Positions 1-18,075 of a stretch of DNA of 64,000 nt are shown one piece after another. The notes beneath the pieces are model-generated. The model worked only from the letters and a program-made list of their open reading frames with translations, ran no database searches and was not told the origin of the DNA. How positions within the stretch are numbered: the first letter of the stretch is position 1; each line of letters opens with the position of its first letter. The stretch is taken from NCBI GenBank assembly GCA_001662655.1, contig KV460276.1. One strand, given 5' to 3'. The position numbers and the translations under genes were made by a program. This DNA comes from Pseudogymnoascus verrucosus. Lineage: Eukaryota.

Positions 1-330
1 AGTCTAAAGCGTTTATAAGTAGTATATAATATAAGGGATATAGACATTCCTTTTTTATACTAGTCTTAAGGTACTTATTAATATAATTAAGTAGTATAGA
101 TTTCATTATCTATTACTATATCCTTTATAATAGAGAAAGTCTCTTATTACCTATATAGTATAGATAGTAACCTATAATAGTAAGCGTGTAGCAAAAAGTA
201 AGGAGCCTACATCTCATTATTAGATTTTTAAGATTCTATTTATAATAGTTGCTCTAGTCATCTTTACTACAACTAAAATTGCAACATGCATAATAGTACT
301 TAGCAAATGGGAGCTTTCGGTTCTAAAGCC
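1..330 (-). pseudogene. Heavily RIP-mutated fragment resembling the Cys/His-rich C-terminal region of a DUF3435 (Starship captain, FluG-domain-annotated) tyrosine recombinase
   Basis: Very AT- and TpA-rich. One minus frame reads FAKYYYACCNFSCSKDD*SNYYK*NLKNLIMRCRLLTFCYTLTIIGYYLYYIGNKRLSLL*RI***IMKSILLNYINKYLKTSIKKECLYPLY. Reversing C>T/G>A changes gives FAEYCYACC..WSNHC...L..GYCPYCMG..RMQQW..LLNHINKHL..CPHPLC. This matches, from memory, the FAE.C..C/W..HC/GYCPFCLG/RM.Q/CPHP.C pattern of captain C-termini. Runs off the window edge. Confidence 0.5.
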
Positions 331-2063
331 GGCGGGAGTACGAGCTAGGTTGTTAACTGTAGGTATCTCGTAGCTTAAGCCCTTCTCACCGTTTAGTATC
401 ACACCTTAGGACTCGAGACTCATTATGGGAATGCCTAGTTGAAAGATCTTCTAAGCGAGATCTCACTTTTCTCTCCGACCGCCTTATAGCTTTGGATGGA
501 GTTAAGAGTGAACTACAAAAAAAGATGAGGTTGAAGGATATCGCCTATGCATATGGCTTGTGGGAGAATGGGCTTCTACGTAATCTACTATGGTTTGTAA
601 AGTCCTAGGCCAATCGAAGTTCCATGCCGCTGCGAATACCGTTCTAGTCTTGGGCATCGACAGCCGGAGCAGTAAAATTCATTCCTTACGTAAAGGAAGA
701 TAAGGAGGGACTTTCCTGCATAACCAGCTTCACCGGTGGCAAGAGCCTTCTTGTAGAGGGCCGCGTTAGAGAAGTGTCGCAAATCGGTGATCTCGCTCAA
801 CCTGCAAACGTGGATTCCATAAGGAAGAGTCTTACGAGCAGTGTATCTTTATTTTTCGGCTCGTGTGCACATTTGATATGTGATGACCGACATGAGCCCA
901 TCGGTTTCGCAGCGCTCGATGAGTACCACAGACCTAGCGATGGCCCTGTTTATTGTCTTGCTGTTACGTGCGAAACCTTCCAGTTCGAATCTCCGCTTCA
1001 CAATGGGCATACTTTCTTTGTCCTGCTGTTACAGACTCTGCCCGGTCGCGTTAATACCTTTACGCGCATAGGGATGGGTAGGAAATCTCCTCCATTTTGG
1101 TTTGAAGACACGCTTCCACGTCAGATTAGCGTTATATAATTCAAGTTTATAAAGCATAAGTTACTAGTTGTCTTTCGTTTCATAATCTCGGGGCTTTCTC
1201 GTTGCGTGGATAACATAATGGAATATCAAGCAGGTCAATCGGCTGGTTAGGAGTTATTTCTGAAACTAACCATCAATCGGTCTCCAGTCTGGCGGGGTAT
1301 CAGTTGGAGGATCAGCTCATCCCGGGTTTGCGCATCTTATGCAAAGCGGTCAAGTCTCGCTCTGCAGAAGCAATGAAAGAGTATACAGCGCAAGAAGATA
1401 ATTTGCTGATGCGCCTCGTAGTTGCGCCATTGTCCTTCCTTGTTGGCTTTTCAAACCAGCAACATAATTAATGACATTCCTGTCTAACTTAGACCCTATG
1501 CGGCTTCGATAACCTGAAATCTAAACCAGATATTGAGAATACTGTGGACTGTTGGAAGTTCGTCAACTGCAAAATCTAGACATGGCGGGAGCGTCCCTTT
1601 TATACCATTTTCAAGCTCACCCACGCTCACCCTCGCTCACCCAGGTCACCTAAACCACCCGATGATCCGTGGGCATCTAAAATTGCGGTGCATCGCATCC
1701 ATCGCGTTTCAATACGAGACCCACATCTTGCGTTGTCGAGGTGGTCCCCATCACATAATTGAGGTGGCTCGTATAGCCTCAATATTTTGAGGCAGCGACA
1801 CTCACCCACTAGTCCCGATGTCACCGACCAACCTAAAATGCAAGTGAAAGCTTGCGTATCCTCTGGATAATAGTCTCATTCGTGCCAATAGGAATAGCGC
1901 AGAATCGGGATCCCTTGCCGCCTAAAGGGTGAGACAGGGGCGTAGCAGGGTGAGTAGGGGGTAACCATGCACTGAACGTATATGTGCGCTACTGTCTCAT
2001 GGACAACTTGAAAAGCAAGCTTTGTTCTCTTAATTAGAAGTCGACGAAATAGCCTGCTATGTG

Positions 2064-2932
2064 CTATTTGATAGTCTGAATAAATTCCTTAATTAGTTCT
2101 TTGACATCATCTGGTGCCTCCACGCAATGCCAATGACCAATCCCACTCAAATCCTTAGTCGACTTTTCAGTCTTCTTGGTCCCATATTTCTCCAAAATCT
2201 CCTTCGGGCCAGATAGAGGGGAAGTTACATCATCTGATCCCGTAATTATCAACAAGGGGACATTGATAGCTCCGTAATCTGGCGGCTGAGCAGTGGCAAG
2301 TGCATGACAAAGAGACATGTAACCCTCGGGAGATGTGCTCAAAACCAATGCTCGAACAAAAGCACGCTGAAGACTGCCAGCCTTCTCTCCCGTAGCAGTT
2401 AGAGGAATTTTCTTAGCTAGCGTCTCAAGACTGTCTATTTAAAAGTCAGCATTTTCTGTCAAAAAGCTAAACTAGATGGAGTCAGAAAGAGCAGCTAACA
2501 CTTACCGCTCTGGATAACCTCAATCCTCTGCTCGAAAACAGGCACAATGGCAAATTCAGGATTCACCGGCCCAAGCAACACAACCGCCCTCACTCGATCC
2601 GGATATGTAGCAGCCAAAAAATTTACCACAGTACTGCCTACTGAATGTCCAACCACAATAACGCTCTCCTTGATATTGAGAGTGTCTAAAAGCCCTATGA
2701 CGTCTTCTGCGATAGTAGCGATGCTTTGCTCTGACTTGCCAAGCTCCGACAGCCCGGAACCTGGAGTATCAAGTGCGATGCAGCGAGTGGATGATTTTAG
2801 ACCAGGAATTATTGTATGGTAAAAGCAGGACGAAGAGCCAAGGCCGTGGATGAAGACAGTTGTGGTCTTAGTTGTAGAGTCTCCGTCGACTGTGTAGAAG
2901 AGGCATTTGCCATTGACTTCAACGGAAGGCAT
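2064..2932 (-). CDS. Alpha/beta hydrolase (3-oxoadipate enol-lactonase-like), 2 exons
   Basis: ATG at 2932 (MPSVEVNGK); HGLGSS oxyanion motif, GHSVG nucleophile elbow, GSDD acid, GHWHCVE histidine; GT-AG intron 2505-2435 joins ORFs 2495..3121 and 2064..2348. Confidence 0.85.
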
Positions 2933-3555
2933 TTTTAATATAGTTCTTAAGACACAATACCCAAGGTGATAACGCGCAATTAATAGGAGCTGAATAGATT
3001 CAGGTGGTAGTGGATCACTGCAGGTTAGAATGACGTCGCGATGACGGATGAGGTATGAGTTAGAAAGAAAGCTACTATCGAGGTGACGTGACGAAAAGAA
3101 GGAAAAGAAGATGGATGACACGCAAAGGTGAGGAAAATCAAAATAAGACCATAGAATATATTTTGAAGAAGATTAAGTAGTTTGTACAATTAACCCTCTT
3201 AGCCTCTTTCGCAATAGCCTCGTTGATGGCAGCCTACGTGCGTCTCTCCCCGTCTTGCTCTTCGCGCATCTGCAGTTCGGCTTGCAACTGCGCGGCTTGT
3301 TGCTGACCCGCTGCAACTTGTCCTTGATATGCCATGTCATGTCTAGCAGCTGACCGCGATGCTCCAATAACTACAGCCGTGCCTAGTAATGGCCTTCTGC
3401 GACGTCCAAACATATCGGTGTCTATAATTCAGATGGTCTGATCTAGGTGTGGATTTCTCTCGTGTGCCAGGAACTTTGAAGTAATGTGTTATTCGTTCCA
3501 CCCTTTAATTGGTAGGTAGTCTTAGGGAAGAAGCAAATGAAGAATAATACTTACA

Positions 3556-5288
3556 CTATAAAGAATTTTGAAGCTGTGATGTAATAGCTAAAAACTGCTG
3601 CGTAGTCAGCGTGCAAGAGAGGCCTGCTCCTTTATCGCCTTCTGAACCATGTCTGTGGATGAGAACCCCATTGCTCATTATGAGCCGGCGGTGCTGCTTT
3701 AGGTCCTTGAAATTTACGTCAATGGTAAAGGACTCCGCTTGAGCGCGGGGCCCATCAATTCGTATGGCAATAGATACCTATAACTGATTTAGCGAGAGGG
3801 CGGCTGTCATTCCCTCGTTACTTGTATCAAACGAGACCGGATAGAGCTTGCCACGAAGCTCGTCTGCACTGGTGAGGTAACAATTCCGCCAAGGCCCGTT
3901 CTCAGCACCGTAACCTAGTTTCTCAAATACTAATGCCAGCGCCTGTTTAGCTTCGTCGTGCTTTGAATCTGCGAAGACCACGTGGCTAAGCAAGGTCGCT
4001 GCAAAGCGGAGGTCGCCATTCTCGACATAAGTTTGGGCCATACAGACGACCGCGTCGGCGCCTCCCATACAGAACACATAGCGTCGGCCTTCCTCTGCCG
4101 GGGGGTGCTCCCAAAGATGAGCTGGATTGCCATCGTACCATCCCATATATCGTTGGTAGATTGCTTTCACATTGTGGCTGATGGATCCGTAATAACCCTG
4201 TGCGTGCCAGGCCCTCTGGAGCGTATGTGGGAGAACGAAAGACTCGGCTATCTCGATCCCTGTCTGGCCCTGGTTTATCATACGAACCGTTTGGTCGTGT
4301 AAGTATGCGTAGAGGTCTCACTGCTCTGAGAGATATTGGGTAATTGCTTCGCGACCCCAAGTAGGCCAGTGGTGCGAGGCGAAGGAGACGTCTGCATCAT
4401 GGGCAAAAAGAACAATAGCCTCATCTAAGTAGCTCGACCAGGCCTGGGCATCACGGACCACTGCCCCTCGTAGAGTTAAGATGTTATGGAGGTTATGAGT
4501 AGCATTTTCAGCCATACATAGAGCCTTGCGTTCGGGAATATAGAAGTTCATCTCGGAAGGCGCTTCCGTTCCTGGTGTGATCTGAAATATGAAACGCACG
4601 CCATCAACAACCTCTTCCTGACCAGTCTTAGTAATTTCTAGAGTTGGCGGAATCAGTGTAGTTGTGCCGGTGGATATGGTGCTGCCAAGCCCTGTGGAGA
4701 TCTGGCCCTCTGGTCCTTTCTTGAGCTCATTCCCATACATATACACTGCACGGCGAGCCATCGCGTTGCCGACAAAGATATTCTCCCCTACAGCATGTTC
4801 CACAAAGCCTTTAGGGGCTAGTATCGTGACTTTTTTGCTTGTTTCCTGTAGCACACCACGGGACCACCAAAATGGTCGCCATGCGGGTGCGTGTAGAGCA
4901 ATCCAGTGACGGGTCGGTTTCCACGGTGTTCGCGGTAGAGTTTGAGACCAGCTGCCGCACACTCCACAGAGATTAGAGGGTCAATGACAATTATACCTTG
5001 TTTTCCTTCGATAACCGTCATGTTGGACAGATCAAATCCACGGATTTGGTAGATACCGTCTGTGACTTGGTAGAGGCCCTGCTGACGACAAAGTTGGGCT
5101 TGGCGCCAGAGGCTCGGGTTGGCTGATGGCGGGCACGAACCTTTGAGAAAGTCGTATTCCTCATTGTTCCAGATAACGTGGTCCTCGTGATTTCTGACTA
5201 TGCAGGGTTCAAGAGCAGCGATAAAGCCTCGACTCGCATTATCGAAATCAGTAGTGTCAGTAAACGAAGAAGAGGTAACTTTAGACAT
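3556..5288 (-). pseudogene. Alkyl/aryl sulfatase (SdsA1/BDS1 family, metallo-beta-lactamase fold) pseudogene
   Basis: Motifs NPSLWRQAQL, YQIRGFDLSNMT, HPHGDHFGG, TPGTEAPSEMNFY, HNILTLRGAVVRD, HHWPTWG, GYYGSISHNVKAIYQRYMGWYDGNPAHL. Broken by a 1-nt frameshift near 4862 (HFGG/ARGVL), TGA at 4318-4320 in EQ*DLYAYLHDQT, and TAG at 3778-3780. The 3' end is approximate. Confidence 0.9.
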
Positions 5289-5652
5289 AGTTAACTAGCA
5301 GGCTTGTTTTCATGCGAACTGCAGAGCATAGCTGAAGCTTGTACCAATATTTAAGTAAAATTTTGCAAGGAAGAATAAAAAGAGGTCATGCTAGTAGTAT
5401 ATGTTGCAAGACGTATCACTAACGTACTTTCCGCGTTATTATCCACTTGCCCGCTAAGTATGATGCATAGGTGACGTACATAAGATGAGGACATGTCTAC
5501 TATAGATATTAAGCCTCTATATTATTAAGGATTAGAAAATCACTGGTCAAGGTGGTCGAGGTGGTCCCGATTACAAAATAAGGGCAAGGGGCAGCAAGGC
5601 TCACCCGCTGCTAGGCCAGATGGCACCGATTTAACTATTATCTAGAGGATAT

Positions 5653-5715
5653 GCTTGAGATCGGTGGATTAGTAGTTGGGTGGGTGACCACCAGCGAATA
5701 CCCACTGTTGTATGT
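5653..5715 (+). rRNA. 3' half of a 5S rRNA gene (5' half absent)
   Basis: GCTTGAGATCGGTGGATTAGTAGTTGGGTGGGTGACCACCAGCGAATACCCACTGTTGTATGT followed by T-rich sequence matches the ascomycete 5S 3' half. The upstream sequence shows no ACATACGACCAT...CCCGTCCGCTC 5' half. Confidence 0.9.
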
Positions 5716-5959
5716 TTATGGTCTTTTTATACCATCTATCTACCTTCTTCTCCTTGATGGATGGGTTGGCAGGTTTGCCATGCCCACTTTTTTTTTCTTC
5801 GCTAGGAGGCATGACTTTAAACCCAACCTGAACCTTGAAAGTGTAGGGGTCTATCGGTACAGTACAGTCTACATACAGTATAATGTTAAATCATAGTAAG
5901 GAGCTTTATTGCACTATAGCTGCATCGACTAGTAGGTATTTCTTCGACTGACACGTTCC

Positions 5960-6891
5960 CAGCATCTGTGTTGATTTACAGGACGCAAGAAAGGATTGTC
6001 CGAGTTGGCCATCCGCAAGGAAAACCGGGCATCATCGAGCAATTCTACGCACAAGTCATCTCTTCAGATGATGAACTCAAGAAGCTTTGGAAGGAGCGGC
6101 CTGATTGCTTGAACGCTGATATGCCTGTTCGGCATGATTGGCCTCTTGGGATCATTCATCAAAGGCGAATATTCATCTTGTCATTTGCTCATAAGGTTTG
6201 TATACTCTAATGAAAGTTACCGTTACGTCCAAAAAAATACACATCAGCTGTTTACCATCCACCGACATTTCCATATCTAAAGTTTCAGAAATTTACAATT
6301 CGTATATACTAAGGTTTGCAACATTGGCTTGACGTACATCCAAATACTAAATACTGACATTTGGGCCAACAGATTACCTGCCTAGCCGCTGCTCGAAATA
6401 GTCTTCGAACCTTTATCGACTGGCCTGACGACGACCTCTCTGAAATCTACAAACGGGCCTGAACAACCAGCACGCATGTTCTAGCCGCAGCAGTAATGCT
6501 CCTTTTCGGGATCCTGCTTTCATCCGAAGACGAAAATGGGCTCTTCGAACTCTCTGAGATGTGGAATTTGGTTCGTGAATGCGTTCCTCCGCTTCAAAAG
6601 CTCGTGAAGTACAGCACGGTAGCGGCGCGAGACGTCAAGGTGATTAGTATTATGCTGGATTATGATGCAAAGATACAGCGGAGCGAGTGGAAGAGACTTC
6701 AGATTGTCGATGTTGTAGCGCGTGTGCTCCAATGGGAGGGAATCGAAAGGAACGTAGGGCCTGAGGGATACCCGGGCATCCCAGAGATAGGGATTGAGGA
6801 GGTGGATATCATAAGTAGTGAGTCTTTGAAAGAGATGCTAGCCTATATAGGCAATGAGTTGGACATTGCGCGTGGGCCGAGAGATTTCTGA
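5960..6891 (+). pseudogene. C-terminal remnant of a fungal-specific (Zn2Cys6-type) transcription factor
   Basis: Spliced reading HQRRIFILSFAHK/LFTIHRHFHI*SFRN..YTK/ITCLAAARNSLRTF..KRA*TTSTHVLAAAVML resembles the fungal transcription factor middle-homology region. Stops at 6278-6280 (TAA) and 6460-6462 (TGA); no N-terminal zinc cluster seen. Confidence 0.6.
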
Positions 6892-7106
6892 TTTAAGAGA
6901 GGTAGCGGTCCTCTCGAGTGCTACTTATGTACACTAATACTGCTACTAAGCTGCTATCTTGCACCAGCTGTTAAGTAGATGAGAGACTGGGTGTCCTGAG
7001 CTTTTTCGTTCAAGGCTAAGAAAACTAAGCAGATCGTCACGATTTCTTTATAAGTCATAATCATATTATTTTTGTATAACTCGAGACTGATTAAATTTTC
7101 TTAATT

Positions 7107-8336
7107 TCAGGTGCCCACCGCCTGCTTAGACATATTTAAGCTATCTTTGAAGCTTTTTGCCTAAGCATACGCCTTTACATACTCAGCATTATAGATTTCG
7201 GACACCGTCTGTGGCGAATATTTCACTACCGACCCTTTCTCCTCACATCCTGGCAAGCAATCAATAACAAAATCGGGATTGCCGTTTATGCAAAGAGGAA
7301 TTGAATACCGCTCTTTTCCCGATTTGTTAATGACGCGGTGTAGGTTTGAGTTATATTGATCGTTTGACCTATGCCACCATTAGTTCAGGCGTAAAGACTA
7401 CCTTTTAACCCCTCAAGTCGTCGACATAGAGAGCGGCTGCAGACAGACCTACCATCGCATTAACATATTGCCAATGTTGACCACATAAGCACCCTTCACC
7501 AGCACAACATCTAACTAAGCCTCGGTCACATTGTCCCACACCTGTAGCCCATCAACCTCTCCCTGCAACAGCAGCGTAATCGCGCCCCAGTCTGTATGGG
7601 CGCCAATCCCTCTCGCCAGCCTATCCTCGGAATCCTTCTCCTGTGGGGGGTAATGGAGGTACTTTAAAAGCGGCACTGCACCTGTCTTAAAAGCGTTGAA
7701 ATAATCCTCACTCAGCCCTAAAGTTAAAGCGAGGGCCTTGAGAAGATCACTAGCAAGTTCGCGAATGGCAGACAAGTACTCCGTGGATGTGACTTTGAAG
7801 TCTGAGGCGCCAGCCATGGTGCTAGCTTTGGGCCAGACGTTAGGTCCAGATTGCATCTTTTTGTTGACGAAGTACGGGTGTGTCGTAGGAATGTCGTCGC
7901 CGAGGAAGAAGCCTTCGTTCATTTCGGGCTTAGTGCCGGGTTCGAGCATCTGCACACCATAGGGCGAATAGCCGCGGCCCCAGGAGGTAAGGGCTATATA
8001 TCATATTAGTGTGTGAAAGGCATTAGGGTGCGAAGATGGGCGTCGTATTTCATTTTCTCTTCTATGGGGAGGTCAAAAAACTCCTTTGACACGTTGAATG
8101 TCCGCTCTTGGAGCTCCGCGCCGACTTTGTGCCCTACAATCTGGAAGAAACCGTCGTGCAGGCAGCACGACCGGATGTCGTCGACTAGTTGCTGCTTCTT
8201 GGTAGCACCGTCGCTATAGAAAGCTGTGAGTCATAAGCATTTATCGTCATTCAAGAATCTCCATAGATGGACGTCGGAGGAGTACACAGAACCACTTACC
8301 AGAAAAGTCAAGGATAGGTGGACCTGAGCCAACCAT
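7107..8336 (-). pseudogene. 2-oxoglutarate/Fe(II) dioxygenase (IPNS-like, DIOX_N plus 2OG-FeII_Oxy) pseudogene
   Basis: MVGSGPPILDFS, GFFQIVGH, RGYSPYG, LHYPP, GIGAHTDWGAITLLLQ, VVNIGNML, SNLHRVIN, RYSIP. TAG at 7515-7517 where W is expected (EA*LDV), a second TAG near 7161, and no GT donor visible for the intron near 8040-7995. Confidence 0.85.
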
Positions 8337-8589
8337 TCTGGGCTACGAAGTCTGAGTCGAGCTAATGAGAGTGGCTTCCCTCGCAGTGTTCGCAATATAT
8401 ACCCGGCTTCACTGCAGATTTGTGACGCCGTTGAAGGTCGGGGATCTTCGTGTTGCGTAGCTTAGTACTAAAGGTCGATCGGGCCGCGGGCGAGTCTCAC
8501 CGTCCCGGGCCAGTCGCAATGTGGTCCTGCCAGCGAATCTTTTATCACCAATACTATTGTAGCAAGGGAGAAATCGAATCAACTGGCAC

Positions 8590-8685
8590 AAAGGACATCC
8601 TTGTGACCCTTACGAGCGGCCATGTGTAATGGTGTTCGATTTTTATCATCCATCACGTCAACAGCGGCTCCATGAGCTAATTTTT
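8590..8685 (-). pseudogene. Isolated ankyrin-repeat fragment
   Basis: LAHGAAVDVMDDKNRTPLHMAARKGHKDVL is one canonical ankyrin unit with no coherent surrounding gene. Confidence 0.65.
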
Positions 8686-10089
8686 GGTGGATGCCGGCGA
8701 CCCGAAAGGCAATGATAGAGACCGAGGAGGAACTCCCGGTTCGCCCCCCGCCACGTAGCTTATTGTCCATGGCTGTGGCAAGCTTCAAGCCTCCTCTGCC
8801 GCCTCCTCCGCCGTGTGATGGGCGTGTCGCCGAGAAGGAGCTCATCGCGGATCCAACAGATGGCGCAGGAGAGTTTCGAAGAACCGAACCCGTCTCGTCG
8901 TCACTCCTCCGCCGTAAGGCACGTGCAAGGGCTCAGGCTCACCGGCCCCGAGCACAGTCGCCAAAGAAATGAGGATTGATATGGGTTTAGGTCCTCGCTA
9001 TACTCCGCCAATGATCTCGCCTGTTAGGGTCGAGCTGTCTCAGACCCCAGTTAGGAGCGTATTGTGGATGGGAAAGCCGGCTGCGCGAACAAACAGGGGG
9101 TGATCCGGCCTGCACAGGACCCTGCTCGGCACATTTTAAGGTACGACCCGGCAGCGGATCCACATGGCCAGGCCAACCATGGGGCGCTGCTTGAGACATG
9201 TCATTTCGGCTCCCTATCCTAGTTCAGGGGTTTTCCAGGGCACCACTGTCTTAAGACGATGGCTCTCACTTTGACCCATAGATCAAGAAAGGGCGAGTCG
9301 ACGTGCTGTGCTGTTTCCTTCGGCATCATGTCTAGGCTCTTCCAAGAGGCCTATCTCGACGGTAGTCAACTCGACGGCTATCTGATTGACGACAAGCTCC
9401 GACCTCAACGGTGCCAGCCAGGCACCCGAAGATTCTCGTTCTCGGGGAGTATCTGGAGACTATGAGCTTCCCGTGCTCCCTGGGTTGACGGAACGAGAAC
9501 GACTCGAGAGCCCTTCCGTAGCGACCGATGACGGCCACCGAGCCCCCCTCCGATAATGACTATGGCCTCTTTGCGGGAGCCGACTCCGAGACCGAGCTTG
9601 AAATGGAGGAAGAGGATTCTGATGCTGGTGATGCCGGTGACGAAAACACGGCTACTATTGTCTTTCCTAACATACCTTCTATACCGTACTTAATAAGTAA
9701 GCCTACTATTCTAGCTTAATGCGCGAATCTAGATTGATTTTGTTAGCATATCTATTCTAGTCAGCATTCACGTTGGGAGTAGCTCTAAAGCTCTAGATAT
9801 TGTACCGAGGAACTCCGATACTTACCGAACCGGAGAATGGCAAATTTTGGGGGTTTTGCTGACTTCTAGCGGCTACTCTACCGCATTAAGTGAAACTGCT
9901 GTTACTGCTGTTCCCACATCTAACAATTCTAGCACTATAGCGTTCTCAGCCGGTCAAAGCAAAGTCTACATCGACGACATGTTTGTTGCGGGGCAATAAT
10001 AAAGGCTTATGCGTTTATTTACGAAGATTATATATACTGATAGCCCAATATGAACGTCAATATTGTCTTTTGCTACTATATGCTATAGC

Positions 10090-17526: not shown

Positions 17527-18075
17527 AGTTTGATTTATTAATCCTTCCTCTAGGTTAGGGGTAGTTTGATTTAAACACCTTAGGTAGGAATAGTTTAATT
17601 TAATCGCCTTAGGCGGGAATAGTTTGATTTAATCATCCTTAGGCATAAAACTACAACTTAATTACTTCTCTATAATAGATGGTTTATAACTTTAGATGCT
17701 ACGATCCATTACATAATGATTCTAGGTGTAAGTAGTATAAGGATACCTCCTTACTTAGGTTAGTTATAGCTGTTATATAGCGCCCTTAAGACTTGGGGCT
17801 GTTATAGTTTAATTACAACTATAAGCCTTAGGCATATAGCATAAGGAAGCCTTAGGCAAATAGGGAGTTAGTAGAGTTAGAGGGGTTTTAGGTATTTAAG
17901 GAAATAGGAATAGAGGGTTATACCTTTATCTTTTTTATATCCTTTATAGTAGACCTATAGGATAGAGTATAGCATTACCTCTAACTTATACTCCTATATA
18001 CACTTATAAAGAGCTGTATTCCCTATAGAAAATTACTTTAGCATCCTATTAGAGTACGCTAGTACTCTTTTAAAA
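17527..18075. repeat. AT-rich RIP-like block starting with ~29-bp tandem repeats
   Basis: Units TAGTTTRATTTAA...CCTTAGG at 17562, 17591 and 17620 plus a degenerate copy at 17527; the following ~400 bp is TpA-rich and ORF-free. Confidence 0.65.

What the first reader, a model, noticed from the sequence alone, without database searches (positions are those of the whole stretch)
5560..5730. Half a 5S rRNA gene: possible boundary of a 5S-targeting giant transposon (Starship)
Seen: a clean 3' half of 5S starts abruptly at ~5653, and the 5' half is replaced by unrelated sequence (...ttaactattatctagaggatat). Known: dispersed 5S genes are a described insertion target of some Starship families, which leaves split 5S halves at the element ends. 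Inference: everything left of 5652 (sulfatase, hydrolase, captain-like remnant) may lie inside an inserted element, with the matching 5' half beyond the left window edge.
Basis: partly seen in the sequence, partly recalled or inferred. Interest (0 to 1): 0.75.

Follow-up and report, generated by a model that had tools for sequence, protein, structure and literature searches.

The report
Small Starship relics splitting 5S genes
The half 5S gene is real and marks one end of a small (3.8 kb) gene-carrying relic of a fungal "Starship" transposon that has lost its recombinase; dozens of such ends cut this fungus's 5S genes at the same base, mostly around inserts too small for current Starship surveys to keep.

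Summary
Confirmed: window 5653-5716 is 5S nt 57-120, identical to intact copies. What replaces the 5' half is an element end. Such ends abut 27 of 35 lone 3' halves in the genome, always at the same GCTTG, and 0 of 40 intact genes. The element touching the half is not giant. Its other end is at about 1851, giving 3.8 kb with a direct repeat, 17-bp inverted arms, an intact hydrolase, a broken alkyl sulfatase and no recombinase. A second element with a gutted captain sits in tandem to the left and runs off the contig start. Three sister elements keep full but stop-riddled captains, whose nearest catalogued relatives are Enterprise-family; the target register equals that of Osiris. Fourteen elements with matching ends span 3.0-14.4 kb, below the 15-kb survey cut-off, each with different cargo. 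Each copy has its own breakpoint, no intact captain of this lineage was found, and no empty site appeared in four other runs. Best reading: immobile relics of small 5S-targeting Starships (0.6). Rival: captainless shuttles moved in trans (0.3). Four of 33 intact 5S genes examined look restored by the element's end.

The parts
2..376 (-). C-terminal remnant of a DUF3435-type captain of the left tandem element; AT-rich, RIP-like; cut by the contig start
   Evidence: tblastn to residues 608-732 of RDL31538.1, 46%, E 4e-27; 76% DNA match to the same part of the C52 captain region; GC 0.31 and TpA/ApT 1.62 over 1-400
394..1516 (.). Sequence that replaces the middle of the left element's captain; holds a 163-aa open frame (648-1139, +) of no Pfam family
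   Evidence: DNA similarity to the captain region breaks off at both sides; no Pfam hit; 825-1284 is 78% like C39:174339-174798
1517..1576 (-). Short N-terminal-region stub of the same captain
   Evidence: Residues 90-109 of RDL31538.1, 60%, E 3e-5; DNA match to C27 and C52 captains
1583..1849 (-). Captain-side end of the left element (end type C) with CTCACC repeats
   Evidence: 71% to the type B end of C13; 72% to an end that abuts a 5S 3' part at C2:230 kb; its arm is the inverse of type C cargo-side arms
1848..1854 (+). Target core AAGCTTG (5S nt 55-61) at the tandem junction; left direct-repeat copy for the 3.8-kb element
   Evidence: Read directly; at other loci the same end follows a 5S 5' half ending in this core
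1855..1965 (+). Cargo-side end (type A) of the 3.8-kb element; 17-bp arm at 1858-1874, then GGTGAG repeats
   Evidence: 85% to the C63 end; arm is 16 of 17 complementary to 5634-5650
2067..2932 (-). Cargo 1: alpha/beta hydrolase, two exons (2932-2507 and 2435-2067), apparently intact, no second DNA copy found in the genome
   Evidence: PF00561, E 4e-20; 90-93% to a 265-aa Pseudogymnoascus australis protein over its whole length; no other DNA match among 40 of 57 candidates scored
3574..5288 (-). Cargo 2: alkyl sulfatase (metallo-beta-lactamase fold), broken by a frameshift near 4833-4872 and a stop at 4318-4320
   Evidence: PF14863 and PF00753; 83-89% to a 609-aa homolog in two frames; three other runs read another base at 4320
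5544..5652 (-). Captain-side end (type A) of the 3.8-kb element; 17-bp arm at 5634-5650; only about 108 bp of the parent end remain and no captain sequence follows
   Evidence: in C27, C52 and C25 a captain starts 350-365 bp inside the equivalent end
5653..5716 (+). 3' part of a dispersed 5S rRNA gene (nt 57-120); 5653-5657 (GCTTG) is the right direct-repeat copy
   Evidence: 64 of 64 identical to intact copies
5717..5730 (+). Decayed T-rich terminator tract of the former 5S gene
   Evidence: Intact copies are followed by T runs at the same place

Best explanation
The half 5S is the scar of site-specific integration by a lineage of small, 5S-targeting Enterprise-family Starships; the adjoining 3.8-kb insert is an immobile relic that lost its captain. 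SHOWN: one fixed cut point in 5S (core AAGCTTG, GCTTG repeated at both ends); a fixed orientation, with the captain antisense to 5S and next to the 3' half; 17-bp inverted arms in three end types; broken captains or captain stubs behind the same ends; different cargo in each element. INFERRED from Starship biology: the captain tyrosine recombinase joins the two ends into a circle, whose junction is two 17-bp arms around a 9-bp spacer holding the core. It recombines that junction with the 5S core. The cargo-side arm resembles the 5S stretch just 3' of the core, so the captain probably recognises the same motif in the target and in its own ends. Each insertion rebuilds the core, so later elements can stack in tandem, as at window 1850. 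INFERRED from the pattern of decay: the captain is the one long sequence shared by all copies, so RIP mutated it. It was then deleted separately in each copy, leaving short ends and single-copy cargo. The parent elements were probably modest in size too: the one complete captain-bearing copy is 13 kb.
For: Census: 40 intact 5S genes, 43 lone 5' and 35 lone 3' halves; an end abuts 27 of 35 lone 3' halves and 0 of 40 intact genes. Full-length captains with many TAG/TAA stops start 350-365 bp inside this end at C27, C52 and C25; inward-pointing stubs lie at six more ends. Three of the five nearest captain homologs are in the starfish table and all three are fam06 = Enterprise. The Osiris direct repeat lies in the same 5S register. 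Similarity to the captain-bearing parents stops at scattered places, from about 50 bp to over 2 kb, among the 37 ends compared. No two of 18 interiors share more than 92 bp of DNA. In the DNA fetched, 25 of 42 cargo-side ends and 20 of 37 captain-side ends have no partner. Runs X2, X3 and X5 hold the same two elements. Derelict Starships are described (passages of PMC11623301 and PMC11162782).
Against: Fourteen elements keep both ends with matching arms, and their interiors are mostly free of RIP-like debris (0 of 24 windows in this element), which is tidier than random erosion would suggest. Seven of 42 cargo-side ends sit in exact tandem junctions. Three 5S loci with different upstream flanks share one T-tract plus end variant, so end variants did spread by movement. 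Some unpaired ends may be long elements broken by the assembly (151 contigs), and only 1-16 kb was read behind each. The family call rests on homolog look-up at 47-67% identity, not on a tree or the starfish models. No empty site was found for this locus.
Confidence: 0.6

Rival explanations
1. Natural non-autonomous mini-Starships. The captain was lost before the last move. Ends of 50-600 bp suffice, a captain elsewhere in the genome or in a mating partner moved them, and short ends plus unique cargo let them escape RIP. They act as one-to-four-gene shuttles into 5S sites.
For: 14 elements of 3.0-14.4 kb (median 5.0 kb) keep both ends of one type; arms match within an element better than between elements overall (p 1.7e-4); exact tandem junctions; mostly clean interiors with long open frames. 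A captain works in trans on an engineered mini-Hephaestus (passage of PMC10104507). Homologs of the broken captains are annotated as proteins in other Pseudogymnoascus strains. The need of RIP for a few hundred bases of shared sequence is recalled, not tested.
Against: No cargo shared between two sites; scattered breakpoints, so no burst from one mini parent; arm matching is not significant within a type (p 0.15 and 0.75) and the end cores barely co-vary (Mantel r 0.14, p 0.055); no intact captain of this lineage among 35 candidates scored; the locus is shared by three other runs.
Confidence: 0.3
2. Some 'elements' are composites: ends from separate insertions brought together by deletion or by recombination between 5S sites, trapping resident host genes.
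For: Three of 17 pairs have unlike end types (C9, C57, C32); the C9 interior has ordinary GC; the window's hydrolase has relatives across Leotiomycetes and no second copy here; about half of all ends are unpaired.
Against: 14 of 17 pairs match in type; the window's own arms are 16 of 17 complementary; several interiors hold NLR-like genes, which are described Starship cargo, and none holds an obvious housekeeping gene among the 67 frames scanned.
Confidence: 0.07
3. Not Starship-related: another small-RNA-targeting element (Dada-like DDE transposon or a 5S-derived SINE; both recalled from memory), or a plain truncated 5S pseudogene.
For: The window's 3.8-kb element has no recombinase of its own; target-like ends are recalled as a Dada trait.
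Against: DUF3435 captains sit at a fixed distance and orientation behind the same ends; both 5S halves flank paired elements, with locus-specific outer flanks; 27 junctions at one site.
Confidence: 0.03

Closest known systems
Osiris (Enterprise-family Starship of Aspergillus fumigatus; PMC12153272 Tables S3 and S4)
   Same: Targets 5S; its direct repeat (aagcc / ttaagccac) lies in the same register, with ttaagccac ending 11 bases before TTAGTAGT as GCTTG does here; short inverted arms; captain family 6.
   Different: The 17 curated Osiris copies are 11.7-139.6 kb, 16 of them above 27 kb, and strains hold 0-11 high-confidence Starships in all. Here 14 paired elements are 3.0-14.4 kb, 13 of them lack a full captain, and lone 5S halves are as numerous as intact genes.
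Voyager (Macrophomina phaseolina; 10.1101/2021.12.13.472469)
   Same: Always inserts into dispersed 5S genes, several sites per genome.
   Different: Inserts 20 bp from the 5S start, is 74-124 kb long and belongs to family 10.
Derelict or degraded Starships (PMC11623301, PMC11162782, PMC13486527)
   Same: RIP-mutated captains, immobile copies, surviving cargo genes.
   Different: In the passages read, derelicts are single large regions. A genome-wide series of compact captainless inserts with both ends kept, stacked in tandem at one target, was not described there.
Engineered mini-Hephaestus and starmids (PMC10104507; 10.64898/2026.09.21.753150)
   Same: Show that a small element moves, that the captain acts in trans, and that a circle is the intermediate.
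   Different: Laboratory constructs of another family, with kilobases of end sequence and a non-5S target.
Pack-type non-autonomous DNA transposons, and bacterial integrative elements that restore their tRNA target (both recalled, no call)
   Same: Short ends around captured genes; carriage of the target's 3' part so that the gene is rebuilt.
   Different: No donor copy of the window's cargo was found; the restoring form is seen at 4 of 33 intact 5S genes only and is not shown to move.

Membership tests
Starship superfamily | DUF3435 tyrosine-recombinase captain at the 5' end, pointing inward | tested here: not met
   No captain in window 1851-5652. Met, but broken, in sister elements with the same end types at C27, C52 and C25. 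The window element is therefore filed as a captainless derivative, not as a Starship proper.
Starship superfamily | Short direct repeats at both ends that match the target | tested here: met
   GCTTG at 1850-1854 and 5653-5657; the same core at most paired loci.
Starship superfamily | Short terminal inverted repeats (optional) | tested here: met
   Arms 16 of 17 complementary in the window element; mean 12.6 of 17 over 17 pairs against 10.5 for shuffled pairs.
Starship superfamily | Cargo of protein-coding genes | tested here: met
   Hydrolase and sulfatase; NACHT-like ankyrin, AAA/NB-ARC-like, GH18 with LysM, MFS and GMC genes in sister elements.
Starship superfamily | Large size (published pipelines drop elements under 15 kb) | tested here: not met
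   3.8 kb; all 14 type-matched pairs are under 15 kb; cut-off quoted.
Starship superfamily | Empty site in another strain | tested here: inconclusive
   4 runs laid: three cover all 30 bins, one covers 22; no contig showed an intact 5S joined to this right flank.
Starship superfamily | Captain-dependent movement through a circle | not testable with these tools
   Needs raw deep reads or an excision assay; only assembled contigs were available.
Enterprise family (starfish family 6) | Captain falls in family 6 | tested here: met
   Indirect and for the sister captain at C52 only: 3 of its 5 homologs are listed in Table S4 and all 3 are fam06; no tree or family model was run.
Enterprise family (starfish family 6) | 5S target site as in Osiris | tested here: met
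   Same distance to the conserved TTAGTAGT stretch. Figure 5C and Table S13 of PMC11162782 were not seen.
Voyager (family 10) | Insertion 20 bp from the 5S start | tested here: not met
   The cut is at nt 57-61.
Dada-like DDE transposons (recalled) | DDE transposase encoded between the ends | tested here: not met
   The recombinase found behind the ends is DUF3435; no transposase family among 67 cargo frames scanned. No genome-wide DDE search was made.
5S-derived SINE (recalled) | 5S-derived head travels as part of the element | tested here: not met
   The 5S is split around the insert, with different outer flanks at each locus.

The most novel reading that the evidence does not exclude
Starships have a natural non-autonomous class that size filters and captain-first searches have hidden. 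These are 3-15 kb captainless shuttles, moved in trans into dispersed 5S genes, that capture and deliver one to four genes each (here including a sulfatase whose nearest named relatives outside the genus are actinobacterial). They escape RIP by sharing only short ends. Their arms copy the host's own 5S sequence, and a sub-lineage carries the 5S 3' half and terminator so that insertion rebuilds the gene it cuts, as bacterial integrative elements do with tRNA genes.
Probability: 0.3. Interest if true: 0.75.

Novelty: new variant of a known kind. Interest (0 to 1): 0.55.

Why it matters
Starship surveys start from the captain and discard anything under 15 kb, so this whole layer is invisible to them. 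Split 5S halves give a captain-free way to count past and present insertions. Here they show that one lineage has cut roughly as many 5S loci as remain intact and left dozens of accessory genes behind. The many aligned junctions define a candidate recombination site (two 17-bp arms, a 9-bp spacer, an arm that resembles 5S). That makes the open question of how captains choose 5S directly testable, and suggests minimal ends of about 50-110 bp. If the small forms move in trans, or rebuild their target, eukaryotic Starships would mirror the mobilisable and target-restoring islands of bacteria.

Tried and rejected
Rfam at its cut-off finds nothing in the window; only the relaxed scan does. A lone 5' half upstream on the contig is impossible, since the window starts the contig. 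Partner for the left element: C4 has a type C cargo-side end 24 kb from its end and finishes in about 10 kb of AT-rich retroelement-like DNA, but shows no captain match and no overlap, so the join is unproven. Empty site: none among 4 runs from 3 studies; no contig bridges the 5652/5653 junction by 31 letters on both sides (X2 reaches 5681). X6 has no single-copy cover from about 3586 to 8900 and one contig runs on into other sequence after 3585; a hole in contigs proves nothing, so this is not used. Donor copies of the window's cargo: none. Shared cargo between elements: none beyond 92 bp of DNA and one protein-level chitinase match. Co-variation of ends within a type: not significant. A metagenome scan for the junction gave one 2.9-kb contig with a type A end and a 5S half, too short to show cargo. 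Other DUF3435 matches (C44, C26, C20, C46, C61, C15, C18) have no such ends within the stretches read and are distant from this captain. Hairpins at the ends: no folding signal. The repeat finder did not list the arm pair among the 25 of 27 pairs shown; it was measured by script. The direct repeat was not found as a Starship repeat in the held part of the starfish supplement, which is cut. A first two-type sorting of ends (16 of 17 matched) was replaced by three types (14 of 17); one further pair with another end nested inside was left out, and one type C call (C63) was a pattern error and is type A. C27 and C53 carry a 100% identical end at contig tips and are probably one locus, which would make the count 26 of 34.

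Full report
1. Observation. The window is bases 1-64000 of contig C71 of a 30.2-Mb assembly in 151 contigs. Positions 5653-5716 are identical to nt 57-120 of the genome's dispersed 5S genes, and the match ends exactly at 5653. Rfam scores the half below its cut-off. Because the window opens the contig, no 5' half can be sought upstream on it.

2. The replacing sequence is an element end. A search with 5250-5760 returned many loci that share the 110-170 bases before the half as well as the half itself. Patterns for the two halves of 5S gave 83 and 75 matches: 40 intact genes, 43 lone 5' halves and 35 lone 3' halves. An end of this kind abuts 27 of the 35 lone 3' halves and none of the 40 intact genes; a second kind of end follows 20 of the 43 lone 5' halves. 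That last figure is a lower bound, since 40 of 71 candidates were scored. 5' halves run to nt 61 and 3' halves start at nt 57, so GCTTG, inside AAGCTTG, is repeated at both sides.

3. Layout in the window. The second kind of end occurs at 1851-1965, so the element that touches the 5S half spans about 1851-5652 (3.8 kb). It has GCTTG at both sides and 17-bp arms that are 16 of 17 complementary. It carries an apparently intact two-exon hydrolase and an alkyl sulfatase with a frameshift and a stop; three other runs read another base in that stop. It has no captain: only about 108 bp of the parent end remain. Directly left, at 1583-1849, is the captain-side end of another element of a different type. 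That element keeps a captain stub (1517-1576) and the captain's C-terminal part (2-376), with about 1.1 kb of other sequence between, and runs off the contig. Seven of 42 cargo-side ends in the DNA fetched sit in such tandem junctions.

4. Link to Starships. DUF3435 gave 19 matches in the genome. At C27, C52 and C25 a captain begins 350-365 bp inside the end that abuts the 5S 3' half and points inward; all three carry many TAG and TAA stops. Inward-pointing stubs lie behind six more such ends. No uninterrupted captain of this lineage appeared among the 35 candidates scored. A segment of the C52 captain, read with X at stops, found five homologs at 47-67% identity from Pseudogymnoascus species and Venustampulla. 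Three are in Table S4 of PMC11162782, all as fam06, which Table 1 names Enterprise. The Enterprise-family element Osiris has a direct repeat in the same 5S register. The host is probably in or near Pseudogymnoascus; that is inferred from named protein hits.

5. The series. In the stretches fetched around hits (not the whole genome) I found 42 cargo-side and 37 captain-side ends (plus the window's own). Seventeen pairs lie within 40 kb without another end between. Arms fall into three types; 14 of 17 pairs match (9 A, 5 B). These 14 span 2,982-14,398 bp, median 5,008; only C52 (13 kb) has a full captain. Published pipelines remove elements under 15 kb. Cargo differs in every case: MFS transporters, HeLo with NACHT-like ankyrin, AAA/NB-ARC-like, GMC oxidoreductase, GH18 with LysM, dehydrogenase and others. 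No two of 18 interiors share more than 92 bp of DNA. Results against a tidy mobile family: about half of all ends have no partner in the 1-16 kb read; similarity to the captain-bearing parents stops at scattered points among the 37 ends; arm matching is significant across types (p 1.7e-4) but not within them (p 0.15 and 0.75); three other runs carry the same two elements here and none shows an empty site.

6. Mechanism. Shown: fixed site, fixed orientation, direct repeat, arms, captains behind the ends, tandem stacking. Inferred from published work (circle intermediate; captain needed and active in trans): excision joins the ends into a circle. Reading the junctions, that circle would hold two 17-bp inverted arms around a 9-bp spacer with the core, in both type A and type B. 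The majority cargo-side arm matches 5S nt 63-80 at 13 of 18 bases for the non-A ends (chance about 3e-5 per position tried) and 10 of 18 for type A (about 5e-3), one base out of register. At C53 a 5S runs through that stretch straight into the end. I infer that the captain binds this motif in both target and ends; this is untested. Loss of captains by RIP and deletion is inferred from stop types, low GC and scattered breakpoints. Whether the loss came before or after the last move is open; I put it at 0.6 after and 0.3 before.

7. A target-restoring form. Four of 33 intact 5S genes examined are followed directly by a T-tract and a cargo-side end (C22, C17, C6, C1); the opposite strand, as control, gave no hit. 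Three share an arm variant and a similar T-tract but have different upstream flanks. At C17 a captain-side end and a second 5S 3' half follow 5.2 kb on. This is what a circle carrying the 5S 3' half and terminator would leave on insertion. Repair by gene conversion, or insertion at a second site past the terminator, is not excluded.

8. What is known. 5S-targeting Starships, the Enterprise link and derelict copies are published. I ran nine searches of the held library. Their listings, and the passages read, showed no report of natural captainless Starships with both ends, of tandem stacking at 5S, or of target restoration. The library lacks most subscription papers. Seen: PMC11162782, passages, section 23 and supplement searches (the supplement is cut, so Table S13 of curated repeats was not seen); 10.1101/2021.12.13.472469, passages; 10.1101/2024.06.28.601215, passages, and its journal version PMC12153272, a supplement search and Table S3; 10.64898/2026.09.21.753150, first quarter and passages; PMC12506042, PMC11623301, PMC10104507 and PMC13486527, passages. 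Preprint supplements were not seen. Earlier AI notes from other genomes report similar small captainless inserts in 5S; they are unchecked leads and suggest the pattern is not peculiar to this genome.

9. Verdict. A real feature: a captainless 3.8-kb derivative of a 5S-targeting Enterprise-family lineage, in tandem with a second relic, and one of dozens in the genome. It is a new variant of a known kind, of interest for the load on 5S genes, the size class that surveys discard, the readable recombination site and the possible restoring form. Interest 0.55.

Noticed in passing
G000:C22:445389, C17:225005, C6:550016, C1:1197784 (L020, L015, L007, L003): Intact 5S genes followed at once by a T-tract and an element end; three share a variant. 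Possible target-restoring form. Runs X2, X3 and X5 show a like join of 5S end, T-tract and type A end.
   Followed up: partly
window 3574-5288 (-): The cargo sulfatase shows no intron in the alignment, and outside Pseudogymnoascus most named top hits are actinobacterial (about 60-67%), with three other fungi at 62-63% among 120 listed. A bacterial origin is possible; no tree was made.
   Followed up: partly
G000:C15:256.9 kb (L046) and C57:47.0 kb (L100): Two loci share a similar stretch of 5S 3' half, spacer of about 115 bases, 5S 5' half and type B end, as if a whole 5S junction had been copied or carried. C63:161.9 kb has a like arrangement with type A.
   Followed up: no
G000:C13:434184, C13:439939, C15:256812, C52:120545: Several 5S 5' halves followed by type B or C ends have similar bases just upstream, ending in (C/T)TATC; a target preference or co-carried flank is possible.
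   Followed up: no
G000:C53:121656 (L125): 5S sequence runs to about nt 80 and passes straight into the cargo-side end core, in the stretch where arm and 5S resemble each other.
   Followed up: partly
G000:C8:403-417 kb and C63:149-162 kb: Two elements carry separate GH18 chitinase plus LysM gene groups, alike only at protein level.
   Followed up: no
G000:C25:6300-6400 and C57:43970-44020: Two loci share the same T-tract and following bases after a 5S 3' end; at C25 a decayed cargo-side end follows.
   Followed up: partly
G000:C2:279641-279738 (L140) and window 5285-5384: 100 bases upstream of the sulfatase recur at 88% about 120 bases behind a short 5S fragment (nt 20-50) on C2.
   Followed up: partly
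G000:C2:388.3-379.3 kb (L110); C1:1207.3-1207.5 kb (L041): Inverted pieces of an end or of a captain stub lie inside these elements, a sign of internal rearrangement.
   Followed up: no
window 3207-3210: Runs X3, X5 and X6 carry about 220 extra bases here, between the two cargo genes.
   Followed up: no
G000:C44, C26, C20, C46, C61, C15, C18 (L061-L069, L074, L078, L079): Other, distant DUF3435 captains not tied to these ends; some segments at C46 and C61 have no stop. Other Starship lineages are present.
   Followed up: partly
window 8800-9600 and 17730-17963: Repeated sequence: depth rises at 8800-9600 in two runs, and 17730-17963 is 77% like DNA near the 5S gene at C19.
   Followed up: no
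G000:C111-size fragments aside, C20:317.6 kb (L111) and C44:66.9 kb (L130): 5S copies that begin at nt 16 rather than nt 57, so a second cut point near the 5S start may exist.
   Followed up: no
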